From NCBI GenBank assembly GCA_021157815.1, contig JAGGVT010000156.1:1-52414 (forward strand): DNA of 52,414 bases, read 5' to 3'. A program made the translations under genes and the position numbers. How positions within the stretch are numbered: position 1 is the first letter of the stretch; each line of letters opens with the position of its first letter. Under the pieces are notes generated by a model. That model was not told the origin of the DNA, did not search any database, and was given only the letters and a program-made list of their open reading frames with translations. The stretch is from a bacterium (GTDB lineage: Bacteria; JAJVIF01; JAGGVT01). Shown in pieces: positions 141-22,674 of this stretch.

Positions 141-142
141 TA

Positions 143-304
143 TTACATATCCTCTATTCCGAAACTCTCTATATATAGTTCCACAGCCTCCAGAAGGTTG
201 ACTTGCGCTTCCTCGATTGTTTTACCCTGGCTGACCACACCCAGCTCCACGCATCGGGCGACATACCACTTTTTCTCTTTTGTAATCAAAGCCGTAAATT
301 TCAT
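143..304 (-). CDS. hicB: HicB-family antitoxin-like protein (short, 53 aa, no DNA-binding domain)
   Basis: YVARCVELGVVSQGKTIEEAQVNLLEAVELY is a typical HicB RNase-H-like fold motif; GGAGG 7 nt before the ATG at 304. Confidence 0.8.
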   Translation of the reverse strand: MKFTALITKEKKWYVARCVELGVVSQGKTIEEAQVNLLEAVELYIESFGIEDM

Positions 305-427
305 ATACATGCCTCCGGAAAACGGTTTTGTTATCCTTACGTTCAATCGTGTTATTGGTTATTGTACGTTCTTAATATACTTCAGCTTTTGTCTAAAAAT
401 CAAGTTAGTTGCACTGAATGATGAATA

Positions 428-477
428 AATTCGTAACCCGGGAACTTTTCCCCGGCGAAGGGACGCCGGGTTACATA
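428..477. repeat. REP-like element (GTAR-CCCGG family)
   Basis: AATTCGTAACCCGGGAACTTTTCCCCGGCGAAGGGACGCCGGGTTACATA, same orientation as the copy at 81-140. Confidence 0.75.
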
Positions 478-494
478 TTGGGAAAATCCCCTCT

Positions 495-566
495 TGGGAA
501 CGCGACTGTCTTGGTTGCCTTGTTGCTGAAGCGACAGGCTTTGCGACCGAGACGGTCGCGTTCCCA
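495..566. repeat. Inverted-repeat (REPIN-like) element, second family
   Basis: TGGGAACGCGACTGTCTTGGTTGC (495-518) / GCGACCGAGACGGTCGCGTTCCCA (543-566): 21/24 complementary, all 3 mismatches G-U compatible. Confidence 0.65.
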
Positions 567-643
567 GAAATAAAAAAGCGCCAGGGATTAACTTGGCGCG
601 TGGATTTATTTCGTTATTAATTGCAATATAAATATCCCGATAT

Positions 644-2413
644 TTAAAACTCGATCTCACGACCCTCCGACCTCGCGAACGCTGTTTCAGCGCCGAGGTC
701 ATCCTGCAGTGAATCGCCCTCGAGTACCTCATCCTCACTCGGAATATAGAGGTCGCCCGGGACACATGCCGGGAGCGGGAATGTGAAGAACAACGGCTGT
801 GTGAATTTCGCGTGTTTGAGAAGCAAAGTACCTCGCGGCACCGTACTCAGACGTGCTTTCAACTCGGGACTCAGCCAGCCGTAGATTTCATCTTTCAATT
901 CAGCGTAACCGGTTCGCCCATACATAAGAGTTGCAGCGTTATCTACAATCTGCTTGTCAACCTCGGATGCGAACTGCTCGATTCCGAATAGTGTTACGCC
1001 AAGAGAACGGCCGCGAGCGGCAAGGTGGATGAGGTCGGTTTTAATTGAACTGGCAAACGCGTCGCCGCGGGGAGCGAATTTATTCAGCTCGTCAACGAAC
1101 ACGATGATGTTGTCGAGATGCGCCTCGCCTTTTCTTGTTTCAAGCAATTCCTCAAGACGCCTGATAACCTTGTTGAATATGAGCCGCTGGCCGCGCTCGT
1201 TTATTCCCTGCATGTCTATTACGAAAATGTCCCCGTTTTTCAATTGCTCGACTGGAATATCAACCGGCTTGTCCTGCCCCATAGCGATGAGGCCATCGTA
1301 GAATAAGGGAAGACCGGACAGGTTCTTAACTGTTTTATAGAAAATATGTTTCGGATGCCCATGCCAGTTTGTATGTCGCGGGTCGTAAGTTGCCCGGCGT
1401 TCCTCTGCGAGCCATGCCATCAAACTGTCATAATCGTCAATGTCCTGTTTTTCGAGAACGGCCTGGATATCGACCCAGACAGCCTCGATAGCGTCATCCC
1501 ACGCCATGCGGTCAAATAGTACATTAATGTTGTCCTGGATTTCACCAATCGACCAGATGAAAGGTTCGACCTTGCCGTCTTTTCTGTTCGATATGACACG
1601 CGCCGCGCTTTTTCTATCGAAAGGCGCGAATATTCGCACGTTGCTAAACGGTTCGGGGTCGATTCCCATAATGTCATACATCTTGCGGCTTCTAACCGCC
1701 AGAGTATCATTTCCCCATAATGCCGGATTTGGTTTGTCGAAATAAAGAAGGTCCTTGCCCTTTACGTTGAATACCACAACGCCTATTTTACGGCCACGCT
1801 GCTCGGCACAGTATGTGAAAATCGATTTCAGAATGAACTCAACAACGGATGTTTTTGTTGCAAGGCCGGAAATTCCGCTTACATTCAGATGCGCCCCCTC
1901 AGGCCCCATAACGAAGGACTCATCAATAATCAACGATGTCATTTCACCATCACCGTTTTCAAAGACACCAATCGGAATACCCTTGTCTTCACCCTTGTAC
2001 TGGTCCATGCCCAATGCGTATTCGATGCCGTCGGGAGATGCGAAATAGACATCGCTTCGATGCACCGGACGCACTTTTCCAATCGTGTTGCCGATTGTTT
2101 CGCATTTTGCCAGCATGACCTCCTCGGGTTTGGTCGGCGGTTCAGCCTCTGGTGTGCCAAAGTCATGCGAAATATAGTCCATTAAAAAATCGTCCGTGTT
2201 CATGACAGACTGCATCGAGACTATAATTCCGAATGTGATGACACCATCCTCATCAACACAAGCCATCAGGTTTCCCAGCTCGACATTATTAGCATCGTGG
2301 CTGATCCAGAAATGAAATTCAGCCGTTGTGGATGGATATGTCTTTGTTGAGACCGTTTTCCCAATTACATTTTCGAGAAGATTCAAATACCTGGCATTCT
2401 CTTCTGTTATCAT
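644..2413 (-). CDS. herA: HerA/FtsK-family ATPase (bacterial HerA with N-terminal HAS barrel)
   Basis: N-terminal barrel (TTAEFHFWI...FGIIVSM), variant Walker A GAHLNVSGISGLATKTS, FNVKGKDL, Walker B IIVFVDELNKFAP, arginine finger ARGRSLGVTLFGIEQ; lies downstream of a nurA-like gene. Confidence 0.85.
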   Translation of the reverse strand: MITEENARYLNLLENVIGKTVSTKTYPSTTAEFHFWISHDANNVELGNLMACVDEDGVITFGIIVSMQSVMNTDDFLMDYISHDFGTPEAEPPTKPEEVMLAKCETIGNTIGKVRPVHRSDVYFASPDGIEYALGMDQYKGEDKGIPIGVFENGDGEMTSLIIDESFVMGPEGAHLNVSGISGLATKTSVVEFILKSIFTYCAEQRGRKIGVVVFNVKGKDLLYFDKPNPALWGNDTLAVRSRKMYDIMGIDPEPFSNVRIFAPFDRKSAARVISNRKDGKVEPFIWSIGEIQDNINVLFDRMAWDDAIEAVWVDIQAVLEKQDIDDYDSLMAWLAEERRATYDPRHTNWHGHPKHIFYKTVKNLSGLPLFYDGLIAMGQDKPVDIPVEQLKNGDIFVIDMQGINERGQRLIFNKVIRRLEELLETRKGEAHLDNIIVFVDELNKFAPRGDAFASSIKTDLIHLAARGRSLGVTLFGIEQFASEVDKQIVDNAATLMYGRTGYAELKDEIYGWLSPELKARLSTVPRGTLLLKHAKFTQPLFFTFPLPACVPGDLYIPSEDEVLEGDSLQDDLGAETAFARSEGREIEF

Positions 2414-8583: not shown

Positions 8584-11229
8584 ATGAAAGTGTTTTTTGG
8601 ATTCAAATTGATTTCCTGGGATGAACGAGGCGCGTCGCTTGTAGCCATCGCGATTATTTCTTTCTTCGTGGCGCTTGTTGCTCTGACTACACTTGCGTTG
8701 ACAAAAGCTGAAATCGAGTCTGTTGATGATCAGACCAGTGTTCAGCAGGCGAAGCTGGTTGCCGAGGTTGGATTGGAGCATGCTCTTGTGGGCCTGCGCC
8801 AGGGTCAGGACGACTATGTCCCCGAGGAAACCGAGGGTCTTCGCGATATGACCATGCAGGAGTTGTCTGATTACCTGCGCGACCCGGAATCCAACAGAGG
8901 GGTTGTTTATGATGAGGATCCCGACAGAACGTATTATTCCGCAATGGAGAAAACGAATATTGAATCGACTCCTTCCCCAACCTTCGAGACCATTCCCGGT
9001 GACAGTGCAAAGATAAACCTCACTTATGTTGATGACACAACTGTTGTTCGCGACATGAAAGAATATGATTACCAAAAACGTGTCGATAAGAATGAAAACT
9101 ACATCGTTTCACTTGGTGAGTCTCGCCGCAGCGATTCAGATGCTCGAAGCGCGATCAGCGCGAAATCATTTGAGGAATCGTCCACAATACTGGAACGGCG
9201 TGAGGTTCAGACTCAGGTTTTTAATGAAAATCATCTTGACCCGCCATATATCGAATCGGAACATGATTCCTATGACAGCAGCCTCAACAGAAGCTGGGTT
9301 GTTTCATATCCGAACGACCCATCAAACCAGTATCGTGGAATAACTGGAATCAACGTGGTAATTGACCAGGCGAGTCTTGGGCTTGGTTCCGTTGGCGATA
9401 CGCTTTCCTTCAGTTCGTGGAATGAGGCGACATCATCGTTTGACCCGCCATTTGATATTCTGTCGGGACCGCTTTCTGAAGGAACGTTGATGTATCAGTC
9501 AGCTTCACCAATTCCGACCAAGGCGATTAAAATCACGATGCTTACGGATTCGACTGATGATACGGCAAATGCCACTGCCAACTACGGATTTAAAGTAACC
9601 GGAATTGAGTACCATTATGACAGCGATGTTATCGAAGCATGTTATGAAACACCCCATCCTTATTCTGAAATTGAAAACAACATTTCATTCGCTGCCAAAC
9701 CGGATTTAATCCAGGTTATCTATTCTCCTTACGCTTTGCCAACATGGCGTGTAAATCCCATTGAGAAACCGGGGGATGGCATTGTTCTGCCCTGGGACAA
9801 GGATGAGCTTGCCACGGAGTTACCTGAAAATGAAGGCAGCGGAAGTTTAAGCGAGAGCTTGTATGAAAAGATCCGTCTTAAAAATGTAGGCGGTAATGAA
9901 TATCAGGTTATGCGGATTCATTTTGACAGTGAGTTCTATATAGAAAGCGGTGATGTACTGGATGTTTTCAATGGTAATACGGGTGCGATGATTGCATCCT
10001 ATACCGGCGCTGCCGGTGCGAATGCATACACGCCGTATGCTTTCCGTTCGAATCCCGATTTCCCGCTTGCCCTGATTCTCATGCTGCGACGCGACGGCAA
10101 CAACGATGAGCTTCCCGATCCGTATGGATATAAAGTTGATATTCTTGAATACAGTGATGAGAATGGCAACAGGGCTGTTATTTACAATCCTGTGCAGGGA
10201 ACGGCTCATGCTGAAAATATTGGATACAACGACGGCATGGCTGGAGCGATGAGAACTAATTTTGTCTTCAAGCCTGGTCCGCCTGAAATGGGTGGAACAG
10301 TTACAAACTGGAAAGTTGTATTCGACTGGGACGCGGATCTTCTGAATCTGGCGTCTGATTCAGACAGAATAATTCTCAGAAGGTCAGCCATTACAGGTCC
10401 AATGGTTAATGATTTATATTTCGTTACACCGGATGGCACTTATGGAGGCAATATTGGTGTTGTTCCGGGTTATATCAACATTAGTGAATTACGCCATTAT
10501 ATAATTGATATGGGCACAAGGTTCTGGCTTGAGATAATCACTGAATTCGATACCGAGAATTCATTCGCGAGAGTTGTGTCGAACCATGGATGGAGCATAT
10601 CTCACATTGAGGTTGCTTATAACAATGCCATTGCCGTCGATAACACAGCGCCAAGGTTGAGATCATCGTCGGTTACGCTAAAGTCGGCGGAAACCTGCGA
10701 AGCGACGCTTCTGAATCTTGAGTATCCATCATTTGGAAGCGAAGCTGATAATCGTGGTGAATGGTGGGTGAATTCAAAAGACCAGAAACAAATCCTTCTG
10801 CATTTTGACCTTGAGAGTTTCCGTCTTGAAGAGAATGACGCTATTTACATTTACAATGAAAATGGCTACTTGATGAAACTTATCCGTCCGGAAGGATATG
10901 ATGATAGTGGATTTACACATGGTGGAATATACGATCCGGACAATGATGACACGGGCGGCGGGACCATTGGATTTGAATTCCCGCCCAATCCGCCTGAAGA
11001 ATTAATCGAATCGCACGGTTGGGTTATCGTTACATCCGATTCAGCTCAGATTGTGCTTATGGGTGACGGCTCACCGAATATCGGATATTCCGGGTTCGAC
11101 ATCGACCGTATTGCATACTGGAGTCCTGTGGTAAATATTCGTAACATCATGACTGAATTCAGTTCAGATGATACGGATGAGTATTCGTTTAAGGTTACAG
11201 ATCCGGTCGATAAATTCCGTCAGTATTAA
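8584..11229 (+). CDS. PilX-like minor pilin with about 4 CUB-like repeats (putative tip adhesin)
   Basis: DERG|ASLVAIAIISFFVALV (class III signal lacking E5), QAKLVAEVGLE PilX N-terminal motif; repeats with ESEH/ETPHPY, RIHFD/LLHFD, D-x-L/I and YGFKV/YGYKV/HGWSI/YSGFDI ends. Confidence 0.7.
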   Translation: MKVFFGFKLISWDERGASLVAIAIISFFVALVALTTLALTKAEIESVDDQTSVQQAKLVAEVGLEHALVGLRQGQDDYVPEETEGLRDMTMQELSDYLRDPESNRGVVYDEDPDRTYYSAMEKTNIESTPSPTFETIPGDSAKINLTYVDDTTVVRDMKEYDYQKRVDKNENYIVSLGESRRSDSDARSAISAKSFEESSTILERREVQTQVFNENHLDPPYIESEHDSYDSSLNRSWVVSYPNDPSNQYRGITGINVVIDQASLGLGSVGDTLSFSSWNEATSSFDPPFDILSGPLSEGTLMYQSASPIPTKAIKITMLTDSTDDTANATANYGFKVTGIEYHYDSDVIEACYETPHPYSEIENNISFAAKPDLIQVIYSPYALPTWRVNPIEKPGDGIVLPWDKDELATELPENEGSGSLSESLYEKIRLKNVGGNEYQVMRIHFDSEFYIESGDVLDVFNGNTGAMIASYTGAAGANAYTPYAFRSNPDFPLALILMLRRDGNNDELPDPYGYKVDILEYSDENGNRAVIYNPVQGTAHAENIGYNDGMAGAMRTNFVFKPGPPEMGGTVTNWKVVFDWDADLLNLASDSDRIILRRSAITGPMVNDLYFVTPDGTYGGNIGVVPGYINISELRHYIIDMGTRFWLEIITEFDTENSFARVVSNHGWSISHIEVAYNNAIAVDNTAPRLRSSSVTLKSAETCEATLLNLEYPSFGSEADNRGEWWVNSKDQKQILLHFDLESFRLEENDAIYIYNENGYLMKLIRPEGYDDSGFTHGGIYDPDNDDTGGGTIGFEFPPNPPEELIESHGWVIVTSDSAQIVLMGDGSPNIGYSGFDIDRIAYWSPVVNIRNIMTEFSSDDTDEYSFKVTDPVDKFRQY

Positions 11230-11317: not shown

Positions 11318-12946
11318 ATGAGAGCATTAAGAAGTAAAATATCTGAATTAATCTCCTCTGATGCTGGTTTTACGCTTCTTGAAGTTGCGTTTGCCGGTGC
11401 GATAATGGTTATTGTCGGACTTGCTTATCTTGGAACCATCTCTCAGAGCATTTCAATCGCGCAGCTTTACACGGATCAGAACCAGGCGAATATATTAATC
11501 GAACGCGAGATAGAAGTTCTTAGAAATACGAAATTCGATACGATTCCCTTTAAGCAAACATCAGAACCGGACAAGCTCGAGGAAGTTCCGGATTATTACG
11601 ACAATATTGCAATCGCCAATCTTGATCCACTTGAACCGGGCTTTGTCGGGTCAAGCGGCGATCAGCTTGATTGCGACGATTTCAACGTGTTCGATAGTGT
11701 TCGTGCCAGCGATGAAAATAGCAAACGATGGATGGCTGTTGAAAATGGGCCTCTTGTTACAGCCGGCAGTTTTGTGCCAAGAACTGATGAGCCAATTATC
11801 ATCGATAACCCGGACGATCCAACTGAACCAATCATTATCAATCCACAGGATTATCAGTTTCCCATGGAGATTAACAGCGAAAGCCAATATGTTTATGTTG
11901 CTTTCCAGAAGTTGCAGAAAATTCACAGGATTATTTACGATAACCGGTTTAATGTTCGAGGAGACGATTCGCTTCCTGATACGGATATTGATTACCGATG
12001 CCAGCGAAACAGCATCTGGCAGAGGGATTATCAGATTTTCATTTCAGCCGATAGTGAAATAATGCCCGGTCTCCCATTCAGGCCTGATTACAATTCAACC
12101 GAGGTAATCCAGGAAGAAACGGAGCTGGGATACGGTTCAACGGGATTAATTGAGGTTTACAATAACTTTGAAGAACCGCTTGAAGCTACCGTTCTCGGTG
12201 TGGCGAATATATCTGTGGAAACGGATTTTGATTCCACATACCATTATCCTTATGCAACCGAGCTTGAAGCGTATGGTTACAAACTGGCAACATCCTATAA
12301 GGAGCGGTATGTGTTCGAAAATGGCGATGTTCATGTAGGCAACTATATAATGTTCATGCCCAAATACCTTGATTCCGGTTTCGACCTTTTCAGGCGGATT
12401 TATCTGGTTGAGGGTGAAACTGATTTCCCGCCCACACTGCAAAAACAGCCTTTGTACAGGATTCAGCTGAAGATTTACATGCATGACGATTCACGCAACA
12501 CGGATAGTTTTGTGAAGGAATTCTGGTGGCAGGAGGACGACAAGGAAATCATGGAATTTACCATGACCCTGGCAAGGAAAGTTACACCTGCTCAGGATAA
12601 CCTTCCGGGCCTGCAGGATTTGCCAAGGCATACCTACTATTATAACGATGAAGATGCCGAGTTTTCCTATACTATTCCGGGTGCGAATCGAATAAGGGCG
12701 CATTTTAGCACATTCGAACTGCAGAATTATCCGGATACCGATTACTTGGAGTTTTATGACAAGACGGGTGACCAGTACGGTGGACAGTATTTTGGGACCA
12801 TGATATCGTTATTCAGCCTTGGCCCATACAGCCCGTGGGTTGATGGTGATACAATTAAAATTCAATTCAAATCAGATGATTATGCGTCCAGTATTCCGAA
12901 CGCGAATCTTGACGGATTTGAAGTTGACTTTGTTGAAATTGATTAA
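11318..12946 (+). CDS. PilV-like minor pilin with discoidin/F5-8-like and C-terminal CUB-like domains
   Basis: SDAG|FTLLEVA prepilin motif; GGGAG RBS before ATG 11318; C-terminal YTIPGANRIRAHFSTFEL...DYLEFYD...SPWVDGDTIKIQFKSD...GFEVDFVE. Confidence 0.75.
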   Translation: MRALRSKISELISSDAGFTLLEVAFAGAIMVIVGLAYLGTISQSISIAQLYTDQNQANILIEREIEVLRNTKFDTIPFKQTSEPDKLEEVPDYYDNIAIANLDPLEPGFVGSSGDQLDCDDFNVFDSVRASDENSKRWMAVENGPLVTAGSFVPRTDEPIIIDNPDDPTEPIIINPQDYQFPMEINSESQYVYVAFQKLQKIHRIIYDNRFNVRGDDSLPDTDIDYRCQRNSIWQRDYQIFISADSEIMPGLPFRPDYNSTEVIQEETELGYGSTGLIEVYNNFEEPLEATVLGVANISVETDFDSTYHYPYATELEAYGYKLATSYKERYVFENGDVHVGNYIMFMPKYLDSGFDLFRRIYLVEGETDFPPTLQKQPLYRIQLKIYMHDDSRNTDSFVKEFWWQEDDKEIMEFTMTLARKVTPAQDNLPGLQDLPRHTYYYNDEDAEFSYTIPGANRIRAHFSTFELQNYPDTDYLEFYDKTGDQYGGQYFGTMISLFSLGPYSPWVDGDTIKIQFKSDDYASSIPNANLDGFEVDFVEID

Positions 12947-13088: not shown

Positions 13089-13757
13089 GTGGCAAGAGCG
13101 AAATATCAAAATATCCTGACACCATTCCTCAATGAGGATGGGTTTACCTTGCTTGAGGCAGTTATCGCATCCGCGATAACTGCTGGAACGCTGGTTATTG
13201 TTCTGCTGTTCAGCATGCGCTCATTTGAAATAGCGAGCGAGATAAATACTGTGAACGATGTCAATCATTCGTTCAGGCGCACCCAGAGAGCTTTTGTGCG
13301 TGATGTTCAGATGGCGCAGTATTTCTTTTTTGGCGCTGATGTGGATAATGAAAACAATCAGATTCCAAATGAGTTTATTGACAGAAGAGTTTTGACAGTT
13401 GGCCGCGAGAATGAAGATGGTGAGATGATCTGGTCGCGGTACGCGGTAAAAATTGGTACCGAGACAACAATATATTATCTTCTTGTTACTACAAACGAAC
13501 TTGAAGGCGCTGAACATTTCGAGACGAATATCATCGCCACAAATGTGCAGGACATGTATTTCGTTTACTATGACGAGGATGATATTGAAACAACAAAGGC
13601 TGAGGATGTTCGTCGAATTGAAATGACACTTGTTCTCGAAGAGAATAATGTTACAGAAATGATGCATTTCTCTTCGACTCTCAGGGGAAAGAATCTTGGA
13701 GTCGCCCTTCCTGATGAGAATATTGAAGTTCATCAGAATACGAACTTTGTGAAATAA
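13089..13757 (+). CDS. PilW/PulJ-like minor pilin
   Basis: NEDG|FTLLEAVIA; FVRDVQMA; IATNVQDMYFVYYD...VRRIEMTL C-terminus typical of PilW-like proteins; GTG start. Confidence 0.75.
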   Translation: MARAKYQNILTPFLNEDGFTLLEAVIASAITAGTLVIVLLFSMRSFEIASEINTVNDVNHSFRRTQRAFVRDVQMAQYFFFGADVDNENNQIPNEFIDRRVLTVGRENEDGEMIWSRYAVKIGTETTIYYLLVTTNELEGAEHFETNIIATNVQDMYFVYYDEDDIETTKAEDVRRIEMTLVLEENNVTEMMHFSSTLRGKNLGVALPDENIEVHQNTNFVK

Positions 13758-13768: not shown

Positions 13769-14302
13769 ATGAACTTTTTTGAAAGACATACAAATCACCT
13801 TTTGGGCAATGCCTACGATGACAGCGGTTATACGTTAGTCGAAATGCTGTTTGTATGCATGATTATCGTAACAATTGCGATGATGAGCATGGGAGCATAC
13901 AGCAAGCAGAGGAAGTTCGGAATTGAGTCGATTTGTGTCACCAAACTCAAGCAGATTGCGCAGTATCAGGAATCATACAGAGACATTGGCGACCCGTCGT
14001 TGAATCCTGATGCATCATACGGAACGTTTTTCAATTTGCAGAATGCCGGGTTCATTCCATCGTGCTTTGTGTCGGCTGATAATGAAGCTCACGATGTCGA
14101 AGCGTTTATTAGGTATTACAAGATAGAGATTGTACGATCACCGACAGGACTGACCGAGGAGCCTGATAGAAACCAATATATGGTATTTGCTTCACCGATA
14201 GGGGCGCCGTACAAGAAAATGCGGATTTTCATGATGCAGGAAGATGGTGAGGTTTATTTCTTTTCAAACAATACTGACGGTGCGCGTATAGTCTGGGAAT
14301 AA
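13769..14302 (+). CDS. Type IV pilin paralogue 1
   Basis: DDSG|YTLVEMLFV prepilin motif plus hydrophobic alpha1. Confidence 0.85.
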   Translation: MNFFERHTNHLLGNAYDDSGYTLVEMLFVCMIIVTIAMMSMGAYSKQRKFGIESICVTKLKQIAQYQESYRDIGDPSLNPDASYGTFFNLQNAGFIPSCFVSADNEAHDVEAFIRYYKIEIVRSPTGLTEEPDRNQYMVFASPIGAPYKKMRIFMMQEDGEVYFFSNNTDGARIVWE

Positions 14303-14346
14303 TGTGCATATTACTGTCAGCGGTTTCCGCGGGACAGGAGCCTGAT

Positions 14347-14847
14347 ATGAAGTTCACTGAAATGAGAGACATATTGAAAGTACATGATGACAATGGATAT
14401 ACAATCCTTGAGGTTATCATGGTGGCGATGATAATCGGCATATTGATTACCATAGGCACGGCGCATTACCTCGAAGCCAGACGGCTGGCATCGGAGCATC
14501 TATGCGCCACAAGGCTTGCCAATATCGATGTGTATGAAAAAATGTATTATCGCCAATATGCGACATACGCCACATTTCAGGAACTTCAGGATGAGGGTTT
14601 CATTGATGCGGCATATACAGCGCATGATGATGTTCTGTCCAATGCAACACCATATATCCCCGAGTATTTCATGACGTTTAATATCTCAAGTGATACATAC
14701 CAGGTGTCGGCACAGACGGTTCATGGTGATTTCAACGCCGTTTATGTTCGCTGGCGCATGTCCGGCGGACTTGAAGACAAACGGGGCATGTTTGTTGATC
14801 AGACGGGAGTTGTCAGATATCTCTATAACAGACGTCCCGTGTTTTAG
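14347..14847 (+). CDS. Type IV pilin paralogue 2
   Basis: DDNG|YTILEVIMV; CAGGAG RBS before ATG 14347. Confidence 0.85.
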   Translation: MKFTEMRDILKVHDDNGYTILEVIMVAMIIGILITIGTAHYLEARRLASEHLCATRLANIDVYEKMYYRQYATYATFQELQDEGFIDAAYTAHDDVLSNATPYIPEYFMTFNISSDTYQVSAQTVHGDFNAVYVRWRMSGGLEDKRGMFVDQTGVVRYLYNRRPVF

Positions 14848-14850
14848 TTT

Positions 14851-15399
14851 ATGACTGGAGAAAGAGTGTTTAATCATTACGGCATATTCAGTAATTCAGA
14901 TTTGGAAAGCGGCATGACGCTGGCAGAGATTCTGGTTGTCATTGGGATTATCTTGATAATCGGGACACTCGCAATACCGAGTATCGTGCAGGTAAAGCGC
15001 AGGCATTTCGAGGATATCGCGATGCTTAAGCTCAAGGATGCCGCGAATGCAGAGAAACGCTACTTTCAGCAGTACAACAGGTTCGGGAAATATTATGAGC
15101 TTGTTGATGCCGGATTCCTGCCACATGGTTACACAACGAGGCTTGAATACTGGGGCCCAATTACAGGAATAAGCACAAGACCGTTCATTGAAGCGTACAG
15201 TGTTCGATTCCTGGTGCCGGAAAGTCCGAATTCGCTCTATTTTAAAATCGTGGCGTATCCTGTTGATGAGGCGCTTGGGCTCAGGGCATTTAATGTTAAT
15301 ATGTATCTGAACTTCGAGGGCAGGCCGGATTTAATATACCAGGACCCGCCTTTGAGAAATGGATTGCTGGATGACGGTTTGCCGATAGGGCATATTTAA
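14851..15399 (+). CDS. Type IV pilin paralogue 3
   Basis: LESG|MTLAEILVVIGIILIIGTLAIP. Confidence 0.85.
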   Translation: MTGERVFNHYGIFSNSDLESGMTLAEILVVIGIILIIGTLAIPSIVQVKRRHFEDIAMLKLKDAANAEKRYFQQYNRFGKYYELVDAGFLPHGYTTRLEYWGPITGISTRPFIEAYSVRFLVPESPNSLYFKIVAYPVDEALGLRAFNVNMYLNFEGRPDLIYQDPPLRNGLLDDGLPIGHI

Positions 15400-15464
15400 T
15401 AAAATAGTCAGTTTTGGGTAATAACTATATGGAAGAAAGGTCGGAATAAATCAGGAAGAATCGG

Positions 15465-15929
15465 ATGGCTTTGAGAATGGACAGAAACAGGCAGAAAGAA
15501 TCAGGATTCACGCTAATCGAGGTGCTGGTAGTTGTTGGTATTCTTGGAATCCTCGCGGTTCTGGCGATTCCATCACTGACCGGGACTGAAAGGTCGGCGA
15601 GGGAATCGGCGTGTGTCCGGGGTTTGCGCTCACTGGCTGATGCGGAAGAGATTTACTATGTACATCAGAAGCATTATCCCGGCGGCGAGGATGGCGTCCA
15701 CTGGTTTCGCCTTAGAAGCGTAGATGCCATCGACCCGAAAGTCTATAAAGGAAGCAAGAATGATTCGTTCATTCGCGACTATTCACTGTTATTCTATTCG
15801 ATTGGCCCATGGGCGCAGGCGTATTCGGTTGTGGCATACCCGATTAATCCTGAGCTGGGGATGCGGACTTTTATTATGAAAGATGACGGTATCATCAGAA
15901 ACACTGATAACGAGCCGATTAGGGGCTAA
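15465..15929 (+). CDS. Type IV pilin paralogue 4
   Basis: KESG|FTLIEVLVVVGILGILAVLAIP. Confidence 0.9.
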   Translation: MALRMDRNRQKESGFTLIEVLVVVGILGILAVLAIPSLTGTERSARESACVRGLRSLADAEEIYYVHQKHYPGGEDGVHWFRLRSVDAIDPKVYKGSKNDSFIRDYSLLFYSIGPWAQAYSVVAYPINPELGMRTFIMKDDGIIRNTDNEPIRG

Positions 15930-15980
15930 TTTTTACAAGGCTGTTGTTTGATAAAAAAACAAAAAGAGCGGAAGCGCGTT

Positions 15981-16475
15981 ATGACTGAAAACTTTAACAG
16001 AAAGAAAGACAAAAACGGATTCACGCTGGTGGAGATACTGGTCGTTGTTGGAATCCTTGGCATAATCACAGTACTTGCGATTCCGGCATATTCGAGAGTG
16101 CAGAATTCCGCTCTGGAAGCGGGAGCGGTAAAAGGCCTGGAAGCGGTCTATAGCGCTTATCAGCTTTACTATCGCGACCACGGATATTATCCGCCCGCGC
16201 GATCAACATATACAACAGAGTTCTATCATCATGTCAGGATGTATCTTCCCAGAGACCTTACAGATGCTTCCGTTACAGACAGTTTTATAAAAGGCTACGA
16301 GTTAAGGGCGCTGACAAGGCCATTCGCTGGTGGTGTGGTTGAGAATGGGCTCATACGGGGTTCGCATTATTTTACAATCATGGCGATTCCGGTGAACACA
16401 AATCGAGGTTTAAGGACGTTCTTTATCGAACCGAACGGAATTGTTACTGACGGCAATACTGAAAACCCGATTTAA
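15981..16475 (+). CDS. Type IV pilin paralogue 5
   Basis: DKNG|FTLVEILVVVGILGIITVLAIPAY; ATG 15981 preferred over the TTG start. Confidence 0.9.
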   Translation: MTENFNRKKDKNGFTLVEILVVVGILGIITVLAIPAYSRVQNSALEAGAVKGLEAVYSAYQLYYRDHGYYPPARSTYTTEFYHHVRMYLPRDLTDASVTDSFIKGYELRALTRPFAGGVVENGLIRGSHYFTIMAIPVNTNRGLRTFFIEPNGIVTDGNTENPI

Positions 16476-16515
16476 TGAAATCGGGATGATGAAAATAAAT
16501 TCGAGGTATCGTTGC

Positions 16516-16992
16516 ATGAAAAGCTCGAAAGACATATTTAAAAATAACAGTGGTTTCACGCTGATAGAAATCCTGCTTGTTGTTGCGATAATCGCGATTC
16601 TGGTAACGATGGCGATTCCGCAAATTACCGGAACCCGCCATTCAAGCTATGAACTAAGCGCGATGCGTGCGTTGAAAGCTGTAGGCGCGGCGCAGCAGGC
16701 ATACAATAACGCATACGGCACTTTCATTCCGTATGAATGGCTGCAGGCGCGTAATTATATCTCGCCGAACTATCTCAAAGGTTCCGTTTCGGACAGGGGC
16801 AGGATAGCGAAGCATTATTCAATCAGGGTAATTATCGATGGCCCTATCACGACCCCGAGAGGTGTGAGATATACGGGATTCAGTGTAATAGCTGTCCCCG
16901 ACAGGGGTTTCGGGTTGAGGTATTTCAGATTGCAGGAGGATGGCGAAATTGAGCAAAGCGCGTCGGGAGCAGGGGGCTGGGAAGTAAGGTAG
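16516..16992 (+). CDS. Type IV pilin paralogue 6
   Basis: NNSG|FTLIEILLVVAIIAILVTMAIP; GAGGT RBS before ATG 16516. Confidence 0.9.
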   Translation: MKSSKDIFKNNSGFTLIEILLVVAIIAILVTMAIPQITGTRHSSYELSAMRALKAVGAAQQAYNNAYGTFIPYEWLQARNYISPNYLKGSVSDRGRIAKHYSIRVIIDGPITTPRGVRYTGFSVIAVPDRGFGLRYFRLQEDGEIEQSASGAGGWEVR

Positions 16993-17072
16993 TTAAATTA
17001 GAACGGCGGTTTTTCGCCTGAGATAAAATATTTTCTGAAGCTCGATCAACTAACAGTGGAGCTGCAATAGAA

Positions 17073-17549
17073 ATGGTGAATCGATTGAAAATAATAAAAA
17101 ATGATGAGGGTTTCACCCTCTTGGAAATACTTGTCGTGGCATTTATAATTTCAATTCTGGTCACGATGGGAATAACCAGTTTCATCAAAACTCGCCAGCG
17201 TGGAATAGAAGCCGCGGGCATGCATGGGATGCAGGCTCTTGGCGCGGCGATGCAGGCGTATCACAACGACTACGGCCGATTCACGAATTTCTATTCACTG
17301 CAGCCGGCATATATTGAAGCTGGTGTAAGGCTGAGCGATACATATCCGCCGAGGCCAAATCCGTTTATCAGGCACTTTTCGCTCTCATGGACCTTTGCTT
17401 CCGCACAACCGCATATATTCAGTATTAATGCGATTGGGATATATGACCACTGGCGCGCTGGAAATGACAGAATTGAGTTGATGATTACTAATAATGGAGT
17501 ATTGAAAAAACGTCAGGCGGGTGTGGGTGAGTTTGTGCCTGCGAATTAA
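17073..17549 (+). CDS. Type IV pilin paralogue 7
   Basis: NDEG|FTLLEILVVAFIISILVTM. Confidence 0.9.
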   Translation: MVNRLKIIKNDEGFTLLEILVVAFIISILVTMGITSFIKTRQRGIEAAGMHGMQALGAAMQAYHNDYGRFTNFYSLQPAYIEAGVRLSDTYPPRPNPFIRHFSLSWTFASAQPHIFSINAIGIYDHWRAGNDRIELMITNNGVLKKRQAGVGEFVPAN

Positions 17550-17565
17550 GTGTAACTGACTGGCA

Positions 17566-17735
17566 GCAGCCCGGTTTCTCATTAACCGGGATTATGACAA
17601 GTTAAGTTGTGTTTTCCCCGGTTAATGAGAAACCGGGCTACGAAGAAGTAAGTGGCATAACTGGATTTTTTGATTGAAGAGGTTATGTGCGGGTTGAGTT
17701 AGATTTTTCCCGGGAAATGGATTCCCGGGCTACAT
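17566..17735. repeat. REP-like doublet (17566-17641) plus single unit (17705-17735) inside the pilin array
   Basis: GCAGCCCGGTTTCTCATTAACCGGG / CCCGGTTAATGAGAAACCGGGCTAC (24/25 inverted); minus strand ATGTAGCCCGGGAATCCATTTCCCGGGAAAA. Confidence 0.8.
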
Positions 17736-17776
17736 AGAAAAAAACGACTGGTTCAGTGAAAGTGTTGTGAGGTAAT

Positions 17777-18247
17777 ATGAACTTCATAAGAAATAAAATG
17801 AACAATGATAGCGGTTTTACGCTTATCGAAATGGTGCTTGTGGCGCTGATGGTTCTGATTCTAGCCACGATGGCCATTGCGAGCATGCGCAGGGCGCGTG
17901 AGGCAGGCCTTGAAACGGCCGCCCAGAAAGCTCTGAAATCGCTGGCTGAATCGCAGGAAATGTTCTACCAGGACAACTATGATTACGCGGATGATTTCAG
18001 CCAGCTTCTTCAGCGATATCTGCCGCGAACATATACTGACGCGGACAGGTCGAATGGTTTTATTCGTTCCTACAGCGTCCTGTTCCAGGTAAATGGCACA
18101 CCTGTACTTGGAACGAGCCGTATCGCCCAGAACAGTGTCTATCCCAATTACACGATATACGCAGTTCCGCTTGCCAGTAATCTCTCGCTAAGAACCTATT
18201 GGATAACGCAGTCAGCGCGTGTTTCCGATTATGTGGCACTGCCATGA
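17777..18247 (+). CDS. Type IV pilin paralogue 8
   Basis: NDSG|FTLIEMVLVALMVLILATMA; GAGGT RBS. Confidence 0.9.
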   Translation: MNFIRNKMNNDSGFTLIEMVLVALMVLILATMAIASMRRAREAGLETAAQKALKSLAESQEMFYQDNYDYADDFSQLLQRYLPRTYTDADRSNGFIRSYSVLFQVNGTPVLGTSRIAQNSVYPNYTIYAVPLASNLSLRTYWITQSARVSDYVALP

Positions 18248-18260
18248 CAGAGGACAACCG

Positions 18261-18734
18261 ATGAGATTGAATATTACAAATAGATATTTGAAAGACGAAA
18301 AGGGATTTACCCTTATCGAGGTTCTCACAGTAGCCGCGATGATTGCCATACTCGCGACAGTGGCACTCGCCAGCATGCATAGAAGCAGGGAGGCGGCTTA
18401 TGAAGCGCAGGCAATCGGCGCGCTTCGAACGCTGTCAAGCATGGAATATGTTTATTTCTTCGATAACAAAGTGTTCGCTGACTGGCATCAACTGCAGGCT
18501 GTGGGTGATTTGGTCGATTCGGATTATGTCAAAGCGGACGATATGGATAACGCGTTTGACCATCCGATCGCAATGAAATACTCGCTGCATTTTGTAATCA
18601 ACGATAACGGCAGTGATTTTACAATTTACGCTTATCCCCAGTTGACAGCGCATTATTACTTGAGAGCTTTCAGTGTTTTTAGTGATGGCGCGATTAATAA
18701 CGCGGGATTTGAATTGAACCCAACATCGCCGTAG
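18261..18734 (+). CDS. Type IV pilin paralogue 9
   Basis: DEKG|FTLIEVLTVAAMIAILATVA; GAGGA RBS before ATG 18261. Confidence 0.9.
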   Translation: MRLNITNRYLKDEKGFTLIEVLTVAAMIAILATVALASMHRSREAAYEAQAIGALRTLSSMEYVYFFDNKVFADWHQLQAVGDLVDSDYVKADDMDNAFDHPIAMKYSLHFVINDNGSDFTIYAYPQLTAHYYLRAFSVFSDGAINNAGFELNPTSP

Positions 18735-18820
18735 CGGTGTTGAAATAGAAATTATTATTTTGTTTAACGAAAGAAACTGATTCTTGCTGATATGAGATTC
18801 AGATAACATCGGAGGCAGCG

Positions 18821-19258
18821 ATGATAAAAATGTTTAATAATCTTCTCCACAGGAATGACCGGGGATTTACACTACTGGAACTTCTGGTGGTCAGTTCGAT
18901 TATCGGAATTCTTGCGGCGATAGCCATCCCATCGCTTGGCGGGTCGCGTCGAAGCGCGTTGCAGGCGGCTTGTGTCAAGGGATTGAAATCAATTTGCGAC
19001 AGTGAGGAGATGTTCTATCGCCTGAACGGGCGCTACACGGATAACTGGAGCGAGCTGGATGACTTTCTGCCAAGCGCGTATTCAAGCTATGCGATGAAGC
19101 GTTATTTCATCGAGTCATACAGCCTGCAATTTTCAAGTGATCCATCTCGACAGACTTTTACCGTTTATGCATGGCCTTACTATGGCAAGATGCGACTTGG
19201 CACTTTCAAGATAAACGATGAGGGTGTTGTTACCACAGAGACCAACAGGCCGGTTTAA
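18821..19258 (+). CDS. Type IV pilin paralogue 10
   Basis: NDRG|FTLLELLVVSSIIGILAAIAIP; GGAGG RBS. Confidence 0.9.
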   Translation: MIKMFNNLLHRNDRGFTLLELLVVSSIIGILAAIAIPSLGGSRRSALQAACVKGLKSICDSEEMFYRLNGRYTDNWSELDDFLPSAYSSYAMKRYFIESYSLQFSSDPSRQTFTVYAWPYYGKMRLGTFKINDEGVVTTETNRPV

Positions 19259-19290
19259 TGATATTTCAGTATTTTGCTTTTTGGAAAGTC

Positions 19291-19899
19291 ATGTTGAAGA
19301 ACATTTTTCTACATAATGAATCCGGCCATACATTGGTTGAAATCCTTGCTGTTTGCGGCATAATAACGATACTTGCGACCATTCCGGTAGCGTATATGCG
19401 TGAGGCGAAAATCCGTGCGAATGAAACAGCCGCTCTGGGCGCGCTTAATCAAATGGCAGCCGCGTATGAGATGTACCGCGTGGTTGGCGACCGCCAGCGC
19501 TTCTATCCGCATTTCTATTCACATGGTTTAATCACTGATACGGTTACTTTTCACAATCCTGAGGAAATATGGGATGAGCTAATCAGGCAGGGACTTTTGC
19601 CGTACAAGTACGCAGCTAATAATCACAATACGCCGAACCTGCTGGCACCAGGTTATTCTTTTTCAATCTACCCGGTAAATTATGACGTAGTGGATAATTA
19701 CAGCATTAATCCGTGGGATAGTTATGCCTTCGCGCTGATTCCATTTCCCGGAAGCCGTCAACCCAGAACAATGGCGCTTATTCATGGTGAGTATTTCGAT
19801 CATTATTTTACAAACGCCCGCGCGTATAAAACATCATCAACATCGTCGGACATTTCAGACGCGCGGATATTCACTTTCAAGGACCCTGAGCCTGATTAG
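19291..19899 (+). CDS. Type IV pilin paralogue 11 (His at +1); start may be ATG 19258
   Basis: NESG|HTLVEILAVCGIITILATIP; ANETAALGAL motif. Confidence 0.85.
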   Translation: MLKNIFLHNESGHTLVEILAVCGIITILATIPVAYMREAKIRANETAALGALNQMAAAYEMYRVVGDRQRFYPHFYSHGLITDTVTFHNPEEIWDELIRQGLLPYKYAANNHNTPNLLAPGYSFSIYPVNYDVVDNYSINPWDSYAFALIPFPGSRQPRTMALIHGEYFDHYFTNARAYKTSSTSSDISDARIFTFKDPEPD

Positions 19900-22656: not shown

Positions 22657-22674
22657 CGCAAGGAGCATTGGACT

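What the first reader, a model, noticed from the sequence alone, without database searches (positions are those of the whole stretch)
8584..11229. 881-aa PilX-like pilin carrying about 4 CUB-like domains
Seen: a PilX-type N-terminus (no E5; QAKLVAEVGLE) followed by four repeats. They run IESEHDSY...SW...YGFKVTGIEY; YETPHPY...MRIHFD...GDVLDVF...YTG...YGYKVDILEY; GTAH...WKVVFD...HGWSISHIEV; and W...ILLHFD..FRLEENDAIYIY...YSGFDIDRIAY. The protein is very acidic. Known: this pattern resembles bacterial CUB domains, which are Ca2+-binding interaction or lectin modules, and modular adhesive pilins are known from Streptococcus sanguinis PilB/PilC. Inference: it replaces PilY1 as the tip adhesin. I do not know of a described CUB-bearing PilX.
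Basis: partly seen in the sequence, partly recalled or inferred. Interest (0 to 1): 0.72.

Follow-up and report, generated by a model that had tools for sequence, protein, structure and literature searches.

The report
Cap-type pilin with four CUB modules
A very large pilus-subunit gene, present in every sequenced genome of one small uncultured bacterial phylum, encodes a cap-type pilin whose fold is interrupted by four CUB-like binding modules, most likely forming a sticky head at the pilus tip.

Summary
It has a class-III-like leader (G16 in 22 of 22 homologues) and never has Glu at +5 (0 of 23). An AlphaFold2 model (mean pLDDT 79) shows a 61-residue N-terminal helix, a long-stranded sheet and four beta-sandwiches. 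In an unbiased search of 48,161 PDB chains the sandwiches match CUB domains best (Z 9.6 and 8.9, rmsd 2.1-2.4 A, about 100 residues). The helix/sheet part, together with the last ~30 residues, matches tip pseudopilins (S. sanguinis PilA, Thermus ComZ, GspK). The CUB array therefore appears to be inserted into the pilin fold, as the solenoid is in ComZ. Pfam finds neither CUB nor PilX_N in this protein. Sequence homology to CUB is transitive, through the CUB domain of the next gene, a 538-aa pilin: a joint profile hits cubilin at E 1.5e-14. The gene, two following minor pilins and twelve collinear pilin genes are conserved in 14 of 14 genomes of the phylum. Tip adhesin function and Ca2+ binding are inferred, not shown. 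This is a new variant of a known kind (ComZ, cyanobacterial PilX, modular pilins).

The parts
8584..11229 (+). gene of the 881-aa cap-type modular pilin (P0001), stop codon included
   Evidence: ORF list and translation. GGAGG lies 12 nt upstream of the ATG, after a ~600-bp AT-rich intergenic region. Homologue in 14 of 14 genomes of the phylum.
8584..8631 (+). leader peptide, residues 1-16, ending in E-R-G; cleavage after Gly16 is inferred
   Evidence: G16 in 22 of 22 rows that cover it; E14 in 20 of 22. Processing was not tested.
8632..9231 (+). N-terminal part of the pilin module, residues 17-216: hydrophobic alpha1 without Glu5, helix 13-73, long strands 107-216
   Evidence: AF2 model m9e7e599129a0, pLDDT 70-85 in this stretch. 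VIA-align: PilA 7o5y_B Z 7.5, ComZ 6qvi_A Z 7.3, GspK 3ci0_K Z 6.2, TT_C0855 6qvf_A Z 5.9. +5 residue never Glu.
9232..9624 (+). CUB-like module R1, residues 217-347
   Evidence: Z 9.6, rmsd 2.4 A, 99 residues aligned to the enteropeptidase CUB domain (7wqx_A); C1s CUB1 Z 9.2. pLDDT 82-94.
9625..10164 (+). CUB-like module R2, residues 348-527, with a low-confidence loop at 392-438
   Evidence: R1+R2 (221..526) align to C1s, MASP and PCPE-1 CUB pairs with ~199 residues aligned. hhalign R1-R2 95%, R2-R4 94%, R2-MP2 CUB 92%.
10165..10647 (+). CUB-like module R3, residues 528-688; the most divergent of the four
   Evidence: R3+R4 (533..846) align to enteropeptidase, MAP-1, MASP-2 and C1r two-CUB stretches with 200-203 residues aligned. 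hhalign R1-R3 83.9%; links to R2, R4 and MP2 CUB are weak.
10648..11133 (+). CUB-like module R4, residues 689-850, with a Gly/Pro/Asp-rich loop at ~770-810
   Evidence: Z 8.9, rmsd 2.1 A, 98 residues aligned to C1s CUB2 (4lot_A). hhalign to the neighbour's CUB domain 96.2%, E 2.2e-9. Joint profile hits cubilin at E 1.5e-14.
11134..11226 (+). C-terminal tail, residues 851-881: two short strands that appear to rejoin the pilin sheet
   Evidence: Strands 869-872 and 877-880, pLDDT 56-68. Pilin matches span model 44/45..881 with only 89-103 aligned residues. Q880 and Y881 are invariant in the close family.
11318..12946 (+). next gene: second modular minor pilin (MP2) with G|FTLLE and Glu5. The start at ATG 11318 is inferred; the ORF opens at 11168.
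   Evidence: ORF. Weak GspI-like N-terminus, E 0.0054, under cut-off. Present in 13 of 14 genomes, adjacent to the big gene.
12581..12943 (+). C-terminal CUB domain of MP2
   Evidence: Profile against PDB sequences: cubilin E 1.3e-8 for the domain alone. For the whole protein, 11 of 13 hits are CUB proteins. Pfam CUB E 0.029, below cut-off.
13089..13757 (+). third minor pilin (MP3, 222 aa) with G|FTLLE and Glu5
   Evidence: ORF. Present in 14 of 14 genomes, adjacent.
13769..20518 (+). array of 12 small pilin genes (131-191 aa after the Gly)
   Evidence: N_methyl motif (E up to 0.005) in 11 of the 12 array pilins scanned, over the 21.2-bit cut-off in 8 of them. 12 of 12 are collinear best hits in two other families of the phylum.
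20880..29198 (+). assembly genes: PilM (20880-22073), a PilN-sized ORF (22060-22656), two ORFs without a family, and a 1507-aa secretin with an AMIN domain (24675-29198)
   Evidence: Pfam PilM_2 E 2.5e-25. Secretin E 6e-39, Secretin_N, AMIN.

Best explanation
P0001 is the cap (K/PilX-class) minor pilin of a type IVa-pilus-like machine. Inferred steps: after cleavage behind Gly16 its hydrophobic helix enters the filament core. Because it has no Glu5, no subunit can be added above it, so it sits at the very tip. Between the main sheet and the last strand(s) of its pilin fold it carries an inserted string of four disulfide-free CUB-like beta-sandwiches (about 630 residues). Together with the two next genes it most likely forms the complex that primes assembly and crowns the pilus. 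Those genes are an I-like pilin that ends in a fifth CUB domain, and a J-sized pilin. The five acidic CUB modules would be displayed outward as the adhesive head, binding a ligand through the conserved acidic cluster that holds Ca2+ in animal CUB domains. Shown here: the gene, its conservation and synteny, the leader features, the predicted folds and their best matches, and the homology among the repeats and to CUB. Inferred: processing, tip position, the complex, Ca2+ binding and adhesion. The ligand is unknown.
For: Context: the gene is followed by two minor pilins, 12 small pilins, PilM, a PilN-sized ORF and a secretin. The same order is seen in 7 of 7 loci examined from 5 further genomes. 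The big gene is in 14 of 14 genomes, MP2 in 13 of 14 and MP3 in 14 of 14. Leader: Gly16 in 22 of 22 and no Glu5 in 23 of 23; that K/PilX subunits lack Glu5 and cap the complex comes from PMC9934059 and PMC13759059 (passages). Fold: AF2 mean pLDDT 79, pTM 0.64, helix 13-73. Pilin-module matches are PilA Z 7.5, ComZ Z 7.3 (22% identity over 102 residues), GspK Z 6.2, all spanning model 44/45 to 881. CUB: Foldseek cubilin E 3.6e-10. The 16 best rows among 48,161 chains are CUB proteins, with R1 at Z 9.6 and R4 at Z 8.9. Two-module alignments cover R1+R2 and R3+R4. Repeat homology by hhalign. The R4+MP2C profile finds 15 CUB proteins at E<=1e-3 (cubilin 57.4 bits), against 1 (38.0 bits) for MP2C alone. 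Acidic cluster: D272 23/23, D457 26/26, D594 26/26, D752 26/26, D828 26/26, N832 26/26, E/D454 24/26, E/D749 23/26. In the HMMER alignment to MASP-1/3 CUB1, three acidic consensus positions of the joint R4+MP2C profile (fdlE, Daieiy, vsDgs) fall opposite Glu49, Asp57 and Asp102; in P0001's own R4 the Asp57 and Asp102 columns hold D752 and D828, whereas the Glu49 column holds R747 in the MAFFT register and E749 lies two residues later. Those are Ca2+ ligands (PMC5300068, passage). A prepilin peptidase is present in 9 of 14 genomes, including the same genus.
Against: No curated family recognises the protein: Pfam 0 at E<=10, NCBIfam 0, PHROGs 0. PilX_N and T2SSK give no hit in the genome. Profiles made only from P0001 repeats find no CUB protein in the PDB, so CUB homology of this protein rests on fold plus a transitive link through the neighbour. 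VIA Z values of 9-9.6 are only modestly above the 7-8 that the tool says is typical for models without a clear match, and the pilin-module Z values of 6-7.5 lie within that range. The best pilin match (PilA) is I-like, not K-like. The canonical CUB disulfides are absent: 2 Cys in the whole protein. D504 is kept in only 17 of 26, and one subfamily has no acid at 747 or 749 in R4. The register of the first acidic ligand is ambiguous between positions 747 and 749. The own MAG (91% complete) has no Peptidase_A24 hit. The C-terminal tail has pLDDT of only 56-68. Gene order is K-I-J, not the usual H-I-J-K, and no H-like subunit was identified.
Confidence: 0.6

Rival explanations
1. It caps a short pseudopilus or another type IV filament used for secretion or for uptake of a substrate, not for adhesion. 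The CUB modules would engage cargo or the secretin from inside, like GspK in type II secretion.
For: GspK and ComZ are among the fold matches. The secretin is unusually long at 1507 aa. Three PilB-like ATPases in the genome suggest several filament systems. No experiment ties the locus to adhesion.
Against: The machinery next to it is of the PilM/secretin-with-AMIN type, not GspC/L/M. PilT-like ATPases are present. Twelve conserved pilins fit a long exposed fibre better than a piston. The protein is strongly acidic (net -78), which argues against DNA binding as in ComZ.
Confidence: 0.15
2. The four modules are generic beta-sandwich spacers that only resemble CUB by convergence. Their role would be structural: a bulky plug that caps the fibre or gates the secretin, with no ligand and no Ca2+ site.
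For: Pfam CUB does not match. P0001-only profiles find no CUB. There are no disulfides. Non-CUB sandwiches (InhA2 Z 8.2, XepA 7.2, PirA 6.8, MAM 5.9) follow closely in the list. A pure capping role has been proposed for the solenoid of cyanobacterial PilX (PMC13759059, passages).
Against: The 16 best rows of the unbiased search are all CUB proteins. Foldseek probability for cubilin is 1.00. Adding R4 sequences to the neighbour's CUB profile raises the scores for cubilin by 19 bits and for MASP-3 by 10 bits, rather than diluting them. The acidic positions are invariant across 27-30% identical homologues.
Confidence: 0.15
3. It is not a pilin at all but a membrane-anchored or secreted surface protein whose N-terminal helix is an ordinary signal anchor. 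On this reading its place before the pilin genes is coincidental.
For: No pilin family or N_methyl motif is detected in it. No prepilin peptidase hit in the own MAG.
Against: The Gly before the hydrophobic stretch is conserved in 22 of 22. The helix runs for 61 residues into a sheet that matches pseudopilins. Synteny with pilins is strict in 7 of 7 loci, and all 14 genomes have the gene. K-class pilins and ComZ are likewise missed by pilin detectors (PMC6561018 and PMC9934059, passages).
Confidence: 0.05

Closest known systems
ComZ of Thermus thermophilus (PDB 6qvi; PMC6561018, passages read)
   Same: A large pilin without the usual motifs, with a GspK-like pilin fold. [quoted passage not shown] It is argued to sit at the tip and is encoded next to its partner pilin. 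Fold match here: Z 7.3, 102 residues, 22% identity, spanning both ends of both proteins.
   Different: ComZ carries one ~380-residue beta-solenoid and binds DNA. P0001 carries four CUB-like sandwiches and is strongly acidic. There is no detectable sequence relation.
Cyanobacterial PilX with a beta-solenoid (PMC13759059, passages read)
   Same: A PilX-class subunit without Glu5, with a bulky domain built into the pilin fold. It is proposed to take over the capping role of PilY1 in a lineage said to lack PilY1/PilC.
   Different: The module type differs (solenoid versus CUB array). The lineage differs. Here the next pilin also carries a CUB domain.
GspK / PilX (K subunit of the H-I-J-K minor pilin set; PDB 3ci0)
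   Same: No Glu5. Domain inserted into the pilin sheet. Followed here by I-like and J-sized pilins. Fold match Z 6.2 over 96 residues.
   Different: Pfam PilX_N and T2SSK do not match. GspK's insertion is an alpha-domain at another position in the sheet (PMC6561018). Gene order here is K-I-J. P0001 is about three times larger.
Modular pilins PilB (vWA) and PilC (lectin) of Streptococcus sanguinis (PMC8179133 and PMC9934059, passages read)
   Same: An adhesive module is presented by a pilin at the tip. Two modular pilins and a Glu5-less pilin are encoded in one operon.
   Different: In PilB and PilC the module is appended after a short pilin module and the pilins keep Glu5. Here the array is inserted in the Glu5-less subunit itself, in a diderm-type machine with a secretin.
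Animal multi-CUB proteins (cubilin 3kq4, C1r/C1s, MASPs, PCPE-1, neuropilins, enteropeptidase)
   Same: Tandem CUB jelly-rolls; best structural matches. Profile hit for the joint R4+MP2C profile. An acidic triad lies at the positions of the Ca2+ ligands.
   Different: No disulfides, long extra loops (392-438, 770-810), 9-23% identity. Pfam CUB is below threshold. Bacterial origin and fused into a pilin.
PilY1/PilC tip adhesin
   Same: The proposed role: a large, Ca2+-dependent, tip-associated adhesin riding on the minor pilin complex.
   Different: PilY1 is not a pilin and has a beta-propeller. No PF05567 match was found in 14 genomes, but the control genomes were silent too.

Membership tests
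Type IV pilin (class III signal peptide) | Short charged leader ending in Gly, followed by ~20 hydrophobic residues that start a long alpha1 helix | tested here: met
   G16 in 22 of 22 rows, followed by a hydrophobic stretch. Helix 13-73 in the model.
Type IV pilin (class III signal peptide) | Match to the N-terminal methylation motif model (Pfam PF07963) | tested here: not met
   No Pfam family at E<=10. This is expected for Glu5-less pilins, according to PMC9934059.
Type IV pilin (class III signal peptide) | Cleavage and methylation by a prepilin peptidase | not testable with these tools
   Peptidase_A24 is found in 9 of 14 genomes of the phylum, including the same genus, but not in the own 91%-complete MAG.
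K-class minor pilin (GspK/PilX) | No Glu at position 5 of the mature protein | tested here: met
   A/T/V/I/L in 23 of 23 rows.
K-class minor pilin (GspK/PilX) | Match to Pfam PilX_N (PF14341) or T2SSK (PF03934) | tested here: not met
   P0001 has no family. 1 of 27 members reaches PilX_N at E 0.13. No hit for either family in the genome while controls ring. The language-model neighbour list includes a PilX_N cluster at 0.89, which is a lead only.
K-class minor pilin (GspK/PilX) | Pseudopilin fold with an extra domain inserted in the beta-sheet | tested here: inconclusive
   ComZ Z 7.3, GspK Z 6.2 and PilA Z 7.5, with model ranges 44/45..881. These Z values are within the tool's 'common' range. 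The tail pLDDT is 56-68. No coordinates were available to inspect.
K-class minor pilin (GspK/PilX) | Forms a tip complex with I and J subunits | not testable with these tools
   Adjacent I-like and J-sized pilin genes in 13-14 of 14 genomes. Binding itself was not established.
CUB domain (Pfam PF00431) | Match to the Pfam model above the gathering score | tested here: not met
   P0001 has no hit. 1 of 27 members at E 0.039. The neighbour MP2 scores E 0.029, 15.1 bits against a 21.4-bit cut-off.
CUB domain (Pfam PF00431) | CUB jelly-roll fold | tested here: met
   R1 Z 9.6 (rmsd 2.4 A, 99 aligned) and R4 Z 8.9 (rmsd 2.1 A, 98 aligned); the 16 top rows of 48,161 chains are CUB proteins. R1+R2 and R3+R4 align to two-CUB fragments. 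Foldseek cubilin E 3.6e-10. R2 and R3 were not tested as single domains.
CUB domain (Pfam PF00431) | Sequence homology to known CUB domains | tested here: inconclusive
   Transitive only. R4 to MP2C: hhalign E 2.2e-9. R4+MP2C profile: cubilin E 1.5e-14, MASP-3 E 4.9e-6, and 37 of 38 hits are CUB proteins. MP2C alone: E 1.3e-8. Profiles of P0001 repeats alone find none.
CUB domain (Pfam PF00431) | Two conserved disulfide bonds (recalled from general knowledge of the family) | tested here: not met
   2 Cys in 881 residues, one in R2 and one in R4.
Ca2+-binding CUB subset | Glu/Asp/Asp (+Ser/Asn) ligands as in MASP-1 CUB1 Glu49, Asp57, Asp102, Ser104, Asn105 (PMC5300068) | tested here: inconclusive
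   Conserved acids occupy the aligned columns in the HMMER alignment and across the family. The register of the first ligand is ambiguous, D504 is only 17/26, and no metal-bound model was made.
PilY1/PilC | C-terminal beta-propeller (PF05567) | tested here: not met
   P0001 has no such domain. Whether the genomes encode a PilY1 elsewhere is open, because the controls were silent.

The most novel reading that the evidence does not exclude
An entire uncultured phylum has replaced the PilY1-type tip adhesin by a pilin-built head of about 1,600 residues. In it the Glu5-less cap pilin carries four CUB modules inside its fold and the next pilin carries a fifth. These bacterial, disulfide-free CUB domains would work like those of cubilin or the MASPs: a Ca2+ held by three acids clamps a basic residue of a protein ligand. 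The fibre below would be a heteropolymer drawn from twelve anciently diverged pilins.
Probability: 0.25. Interest if true: 0.7.

Novelty: new variant of a known kind. Interest (0 to 1): 0.5.

Why it matters
It adds a new module type, a tandem CUB array, to the short list of cap pilins with a functional domain built into the pilin fold; the known examples are the ComZ and cyanobacterial PilX solenoids and the GspK alpha-domain. It also shows that this solution is fixed across a whole candidate phylum. It gives a prokaryotic, disulfide-free branch of the CUB fold with a conserved acidic cluster. That branch is a tractable object for asking whether Ca2+-dependent CUB recognition predates animals. 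The protein and its family (about 20 sequences among 1.84 billion representatives) have no annotation at present. Naming the gene and its two partners makes a large unannotated pilus locus of these vent- and seep-associated bacteria readable.

Tried and rejected
- Pfam, NCBIfam and PHROGs on P0001: no family.
- BLASTP self-comparison: no internal repeat.
- PDB sequence search with the whole-protein profile A1: only a scaffoldin at E 0.13.
- PDB sequence search with R4 alone (A4), R1 alone (A5) and pooled R1+R2+R4 (A9): no CUB protein.
- First AF2 model from 12 close homologues: mean pLDDT 45.5, too poor to use, although Foldseek already ranked cubilin first. It was replaced by the 27-row model.
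- The search for homologous proteins with the profile A2 gave no new members.
- ESM Atlas on the whole protein: best score 0.83, not informative. On the N-terminal part: 0.89-0.90, a lead only.
- Complex prediction on P0001 40-216 with MP2 36-420 and MP3 40-222 returned 'no answer' (score 0.00, controls not run). This is no evidence either way. The split pilin module could not be sent whole.
- The look-up of sequencing runs listed no RNA holder, so expression is untested. The DNA holders with full share are two runs labelled hydrothermal vent metagenome, which may be the source.
- PilY1 family search: 0 of 1 and 0 of 14 genomes, but the control genomes were silent, so nothing follows.
- HMMs of R1-R4 and MP2C against all ORFs of the own genome found no further copies.
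- DNA binding as in ComZ was considered and rejected because of the net charge of -78.
- Halophile-type general acidity was considered and rejected because neighbouring proteins range from pI 4.6 to 9.9.
Full report
THE OBSERVATION

The ORF 8584-11229 (+) exists, starts with ATG and encodes 881 residues. A GGAGG lies 12 nt upstream, and the gene follows a ~600-bp AT-rich intergenic stretch, so it looks like the first gene of its operon. The protein has 142 acidic and 64 basic residues (net -78, pI 4.31). This is not a genome-wide trait. The two next proteins and the secretin are similarly acidic, but the small pilins and the housekeeping proteins in the window span pI 4.6-9.9.

HOW RARE THE FAMILY IS

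- A word-indexed search of 5.8 billion proteins gave 11 relatives, all at least 50% identical and none with a name or a Pfam domain.
- A full HMMER profile search of 1.84 billion cluster representatives gave 14.
- In the genome collection, the phylum of this MAG has 14 species genomes. All 14 carry one full-length, stop-free copy: 14 of 14 overall, and 6 of 6 among high-quality genomes.
- One relative's record is titled 'uncultured Planctomycetota bacterium' and another 'uncultured bacterium'.
- The family is therefore confined to one small uncultured lineage, and within it the gene is universal.

CONTEXT

Downstream, in order, lie:
- a ~538-aa pilin with G|FTLLE (called MP2 here);
- a 222-aa pilin (MP3);
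- twelve pilin genes of 131-191 residues;
- PilM, a PilN-sized ORF and two ORFs without a family;
- a 1507-aa secretin with an AMIN domain.

The order 'big gene, MP2, MP3, pilin array' holds in 7 of 7 loci examined: the window, L001 and L015-L019. MP2 is found in 13 of 14 genomes and MP3 in 14 of 14, next to the big gene wherever contigs allow. PilB-like and PilT-like ATPases lie on other contigs. A prepilin peptidase was not found in this 91%-complete MAG. It is present in 9 of 14 genomes of the phylum, including the same genus and both 99%-complete genomes.

THE N-TERMINUS

The leader ends in E-R/L-G. The Gly is present in 22 of 22 homologues that cover it and is followed by about 25 hydrophobic residues. 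The fifth residue after the Gly is A, T, V, I or L in 23 of 23 and never Glu. Lack of Glu5 is the hallmark of the K/PilX subunit that caps the minor-pilin complex (PMC9934059 and PMC13759059, passages read). No curated model sees this. Pfam, NCBIfam and PHROGs give nothing for the protein. PilX_N is touched by 1 of 27 family members at E 0.13. PilX_N and T2SSK find nothing in the genome although their controls ring.

STRUCTURE

A first AlphaFold2 model from 12 close homologues was poor, with mean pLDDT 45.5. I added the distant members to make alignment A3 (27 rows, down to 27% identity). That raised the mean pLDDT to 79.0 and the pTM to 0.64. The model has these features:
- a helix at 13-73;
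- very long strands at 107-216;
- four beta-sandwiches at about 217-347, 348-527, 528-688 and 689-850;
- two low-confidence loops at 392-438 and about 773-794;
- two short terminal strands at 869-872 and 877-880.

MATCHES FOR THE SANDWICHES

Foldseek against the PDB ranks cubilin CUB5-8 first (E 3.6e-10, prob 1.00), then neuropilins and enteropeptidase.

VIA-align against 48,161 representative chains, without any Foldseek prefilter, gives the following:
- 14 chains at Z>=8;
- the 16 best rows are all CUB-containing proteins;
- residues 222-345 match the enteropeptidase CUB domain at Z 9.6 (rmsd 2.4 A, 99 residues);
- residues 691-846 match C1s CUB2 at Z 8.9 (rmsd 2.1 A, 98 residues).

In the second look at Foldseek's top 982 chains, the 43 best rows are CUB proteins. 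Residues 221..526 and 533..846 each align about 200 residues to CUB1-EGF-CUB2 fragments, so all four modules take part. That these PDB entries contain CUB domains is stated in many entry titles and is otherwise recalled. The tool warns that a best Z of 7-8 is common for models without a real match, so Z 9-9.6 alone is moderate evidence. The uniformity of the list and the Foldseek probability add to it.

MATCHES FOR THE PILIN MODULE

In the same unbiased list the only other coherent group is pseudopilins:
- S. sanguinis PilA: Z 7.5, 103 residues;
- Thermus ComZ: Z 7.3, 102 residues, 22% identity, chain range 5..524;
- ETEC GspK: Z 6.2, 96 residues;
- Thermus TT_C0855: Z 5.9.

Their model ranges run from residue 44/45 to 871/881 with only 89-103 aligned residues. 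So both the N-terminal part and the C-terminal tail are used. I infer that the four-module array is inserted into the pilin fold, before its last strand(s). [quoted passage not shown] The tail is conserved: Q880 and Y881 are invariant in the close family. Caveats apply. The tail has pLDDT 56-68, ranges give only the first and last aligned residue, I had no coordinates, and these Z values are within the 'common' band.

ARE THE REPEATS HOMOLOGOUS TO EACH OTHER AND TO CUB?

BLASTP sees no repeat. Profile-profile comparison of sub-alignments of A3 gives the values below.

| Pair | Probability | E-value |
|---|---|---|
| R1-R2 | 95.2% | 2.5e-8 |
| R2-R4 | 94.4% | 8.7e-8 |
| R1-R3 | 83.9% | 7.8e-6 |
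| R4-MP2C | 96.2% | 2.2e-9 |
| R2-MP2C | 92.2% | not quoted |
| R1-MP2C | 74% | not quoted |
| R3-R4, R2-R3, R1-R4, R3-MP2C | 3-31% | weak |

MP2C is the C-terminal domain of MP2. R3 is therefore linked only through R1.

Against PDB sequences the profiles behave as follows:
- The MP2 whole-protein profile finds cubilin at E 6.7e-4, and 11 of its 13 hits are CUB proteins; the other 2 are geopilins matching the pilin N-terminus.
- MP2C alone gives cubilin at 38.0 bits (E 1.3e-8) and MASP-3 at 20.3 bits.
- MP2C plus the nine R4 sequences (A8) gives cubilin at 57.4 bits (E 1.5e-14) and MASP-3 at 29.9 bits (E 4.9e-6, aligned over the whole domain). It finds 15 CUB proteins at E<=1e-3, and 37 of its 38 hits are CUB proteins.
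- Profiles built only from P0001 repeats (R4; R1; R1+R2+R4 pooled) find no CUB protein.
- Pfam CUB is below threshold everywhere: MP2 at E 0.029, and 1 of 27 family members at 0.039.

My reading is this. MP2's last domain is a CUB domain by sequence. P0001's modules are CUB by fold and by a transitive profile link, which adding R4 strengthens rather than dilutes. They are a very divergent branch, with only two Cys in the whole protein and so no CUB disulfides.

THE ACIDIC CLUSTER

Each module keeps an invariant Asp in a G-D-x-[LI] turn: D272 23/23, D457 26/26, D594 26/26, D752 26/26. Each also keeps a late Asp: D322 21/25, D504 17/26, D656 25/26, D828 26/26 with N832 26/26. R2 and R4 keep an earlier acid as well: E/D454 24/26 and E/D749 23/26.

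In the HMMER alignment of A8 to MASP-1/3 CUB1, three conserved acidic profile positions fall opposite residues 49, 57 and 102 of the chain (numbering counted by me). Glu49, Asp57 and Asp102, with Ser104 and Asn105, are the Ca2+ ligands of MASP-1 CUB1, and that site binds a collagen lysine (PMC5300068, passages).

This makes a Ca2+ site plausible, above all in R4 and MP2C, but it is not shown. The register of the first acid is ambiguous (747 or 749). One subfamily has neither (rows L006, P0013, P0018). No metal-bound model was made.

MECHANISM PROPOSED

The protein is the Glu5-less cap pilin of a type IVa-pilus-like machine. With MP2 (I-like by a weak GspI match, E 0.0054) and MP3 (J-sized) it primes assembly and ends up at the tip. 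There, five CUB modules form an acidic, probably Ca2+-dependent adhesive head.

The tip position follows from three points: the missing Glu5, the bulk of the insertion (the same argument is made for ComZ in PMC6561018) and the gene neighbourhood. A complex prediction for the three pilin modules returned no answer and is not evidence either way. No RNA data were found.

RIVALS

- A secretion or uptake pseudopilus cap: 0.15.
- Sandwiches that are only structural or convergent: 0.15.
- Not a pilin: 0.05.

COMPARISON AND NOVELTY

[quoted passage not shown] 'CUB' does not occur in that paper's text or in its three held supplement files. The published census required the IPR012902 motif, which this protein lacks.

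PilX-class pilins with a bulky domain built into the fold, proposed to stand in for PilY1, are described for Thermus (ComZ) and, in 2026, for cyanobacteria; in both cases the domain is a beta-solenoid. A full-text search for 'CUB domain' + pilin + 'type IV' gave 3 papers, none about a CUB-bearing pilin.

This is therefore a new variant of a known kind. The principle is the same. The module is new (a four-fold CUB array, plus a fifth on the partner pilin), and it is fixed across a candidate phylum.

PF05567 was not found in 14 genomes, but the search had no positive control.

Noticed in passing
window 13769-20518 (+); L015, L016, L017: Twelve tandem pilin genes are one-to-one collinear orthologues in other families of the phylum. 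12 of 12 best BLASTP hits are in the same order in L016 and L017 (36-63% identity), and 11 of 12 have their counterparts in the same order in L015, where only 11 array genes were detected (p3's best hit, 29%, is out of order). Paralogues within the window are only 21-46% identical. The tenth gene (18821-19258, 145 aa) is the most conserved (58-65%) and may be the major pilin. An array this large and this old suggests a heteropolymeric or switchable fibre.
   Followed up: partly
window 11318-12946 (+): MP2 is itself a modular pilin. It has a Glu5-bearing pilin N-terminus and a conserved ~200-300-residue middle region, with motifs such as RILYDNRFNV and YPY..E.E.YG that look discoidin-like to my eye (not tested, no Pfam hit). 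More pilin-like strands follow, and then a C-terminal CUB domain that is significant by sequence (cubilin E 1.3e-8).
   Followed up: partly
window 5841-7978 (+); L002 6987-9461: Directly upstream lies a conserved multi-pass membrane protein without any family (464 aa here, 496 aa in L002). It is paired with a GT2 glycosyltransferase in the window and with a UbiA prenyltransferase (E 1.3e-18) in L002. This recalls lipid-linked-sugar pilin glycosylation systems (recalled, not tested).
   Followed up: partly
window 24675-29198 (+): The secretin is 1507 aa, about twice the usual length. It has one AMIN match near the N-terminus and about 1,000 residues without any family, and it is very acidic (net -100, pI 4.55).
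   Followed up: no
window 9757-9897 and 10900-10965 (residues 392-438 and 773-794): There are two low-confidence, Gly/Pro/Asp/Glu-rich loops inside modules R2 and R4. Their length and sequence vary widely among homologues: the R2 loop is absent in three close relatives, and the R4 loop is present in all.
   Followed up: no
own genome, contigs C89, C211, C38, C68, C178: Three PilB-like (613-632 aa) and three PilT-like (362-383 aa) ATPase genes lie on other contigs. No Peptidase_A24 hit was found in this MAG, although 9 of 14 relatives have one.
   Followed up: partly
window 43125-45791 (-): FliG and FliF genes show that the organism is also flagellated.
   Followed up: no
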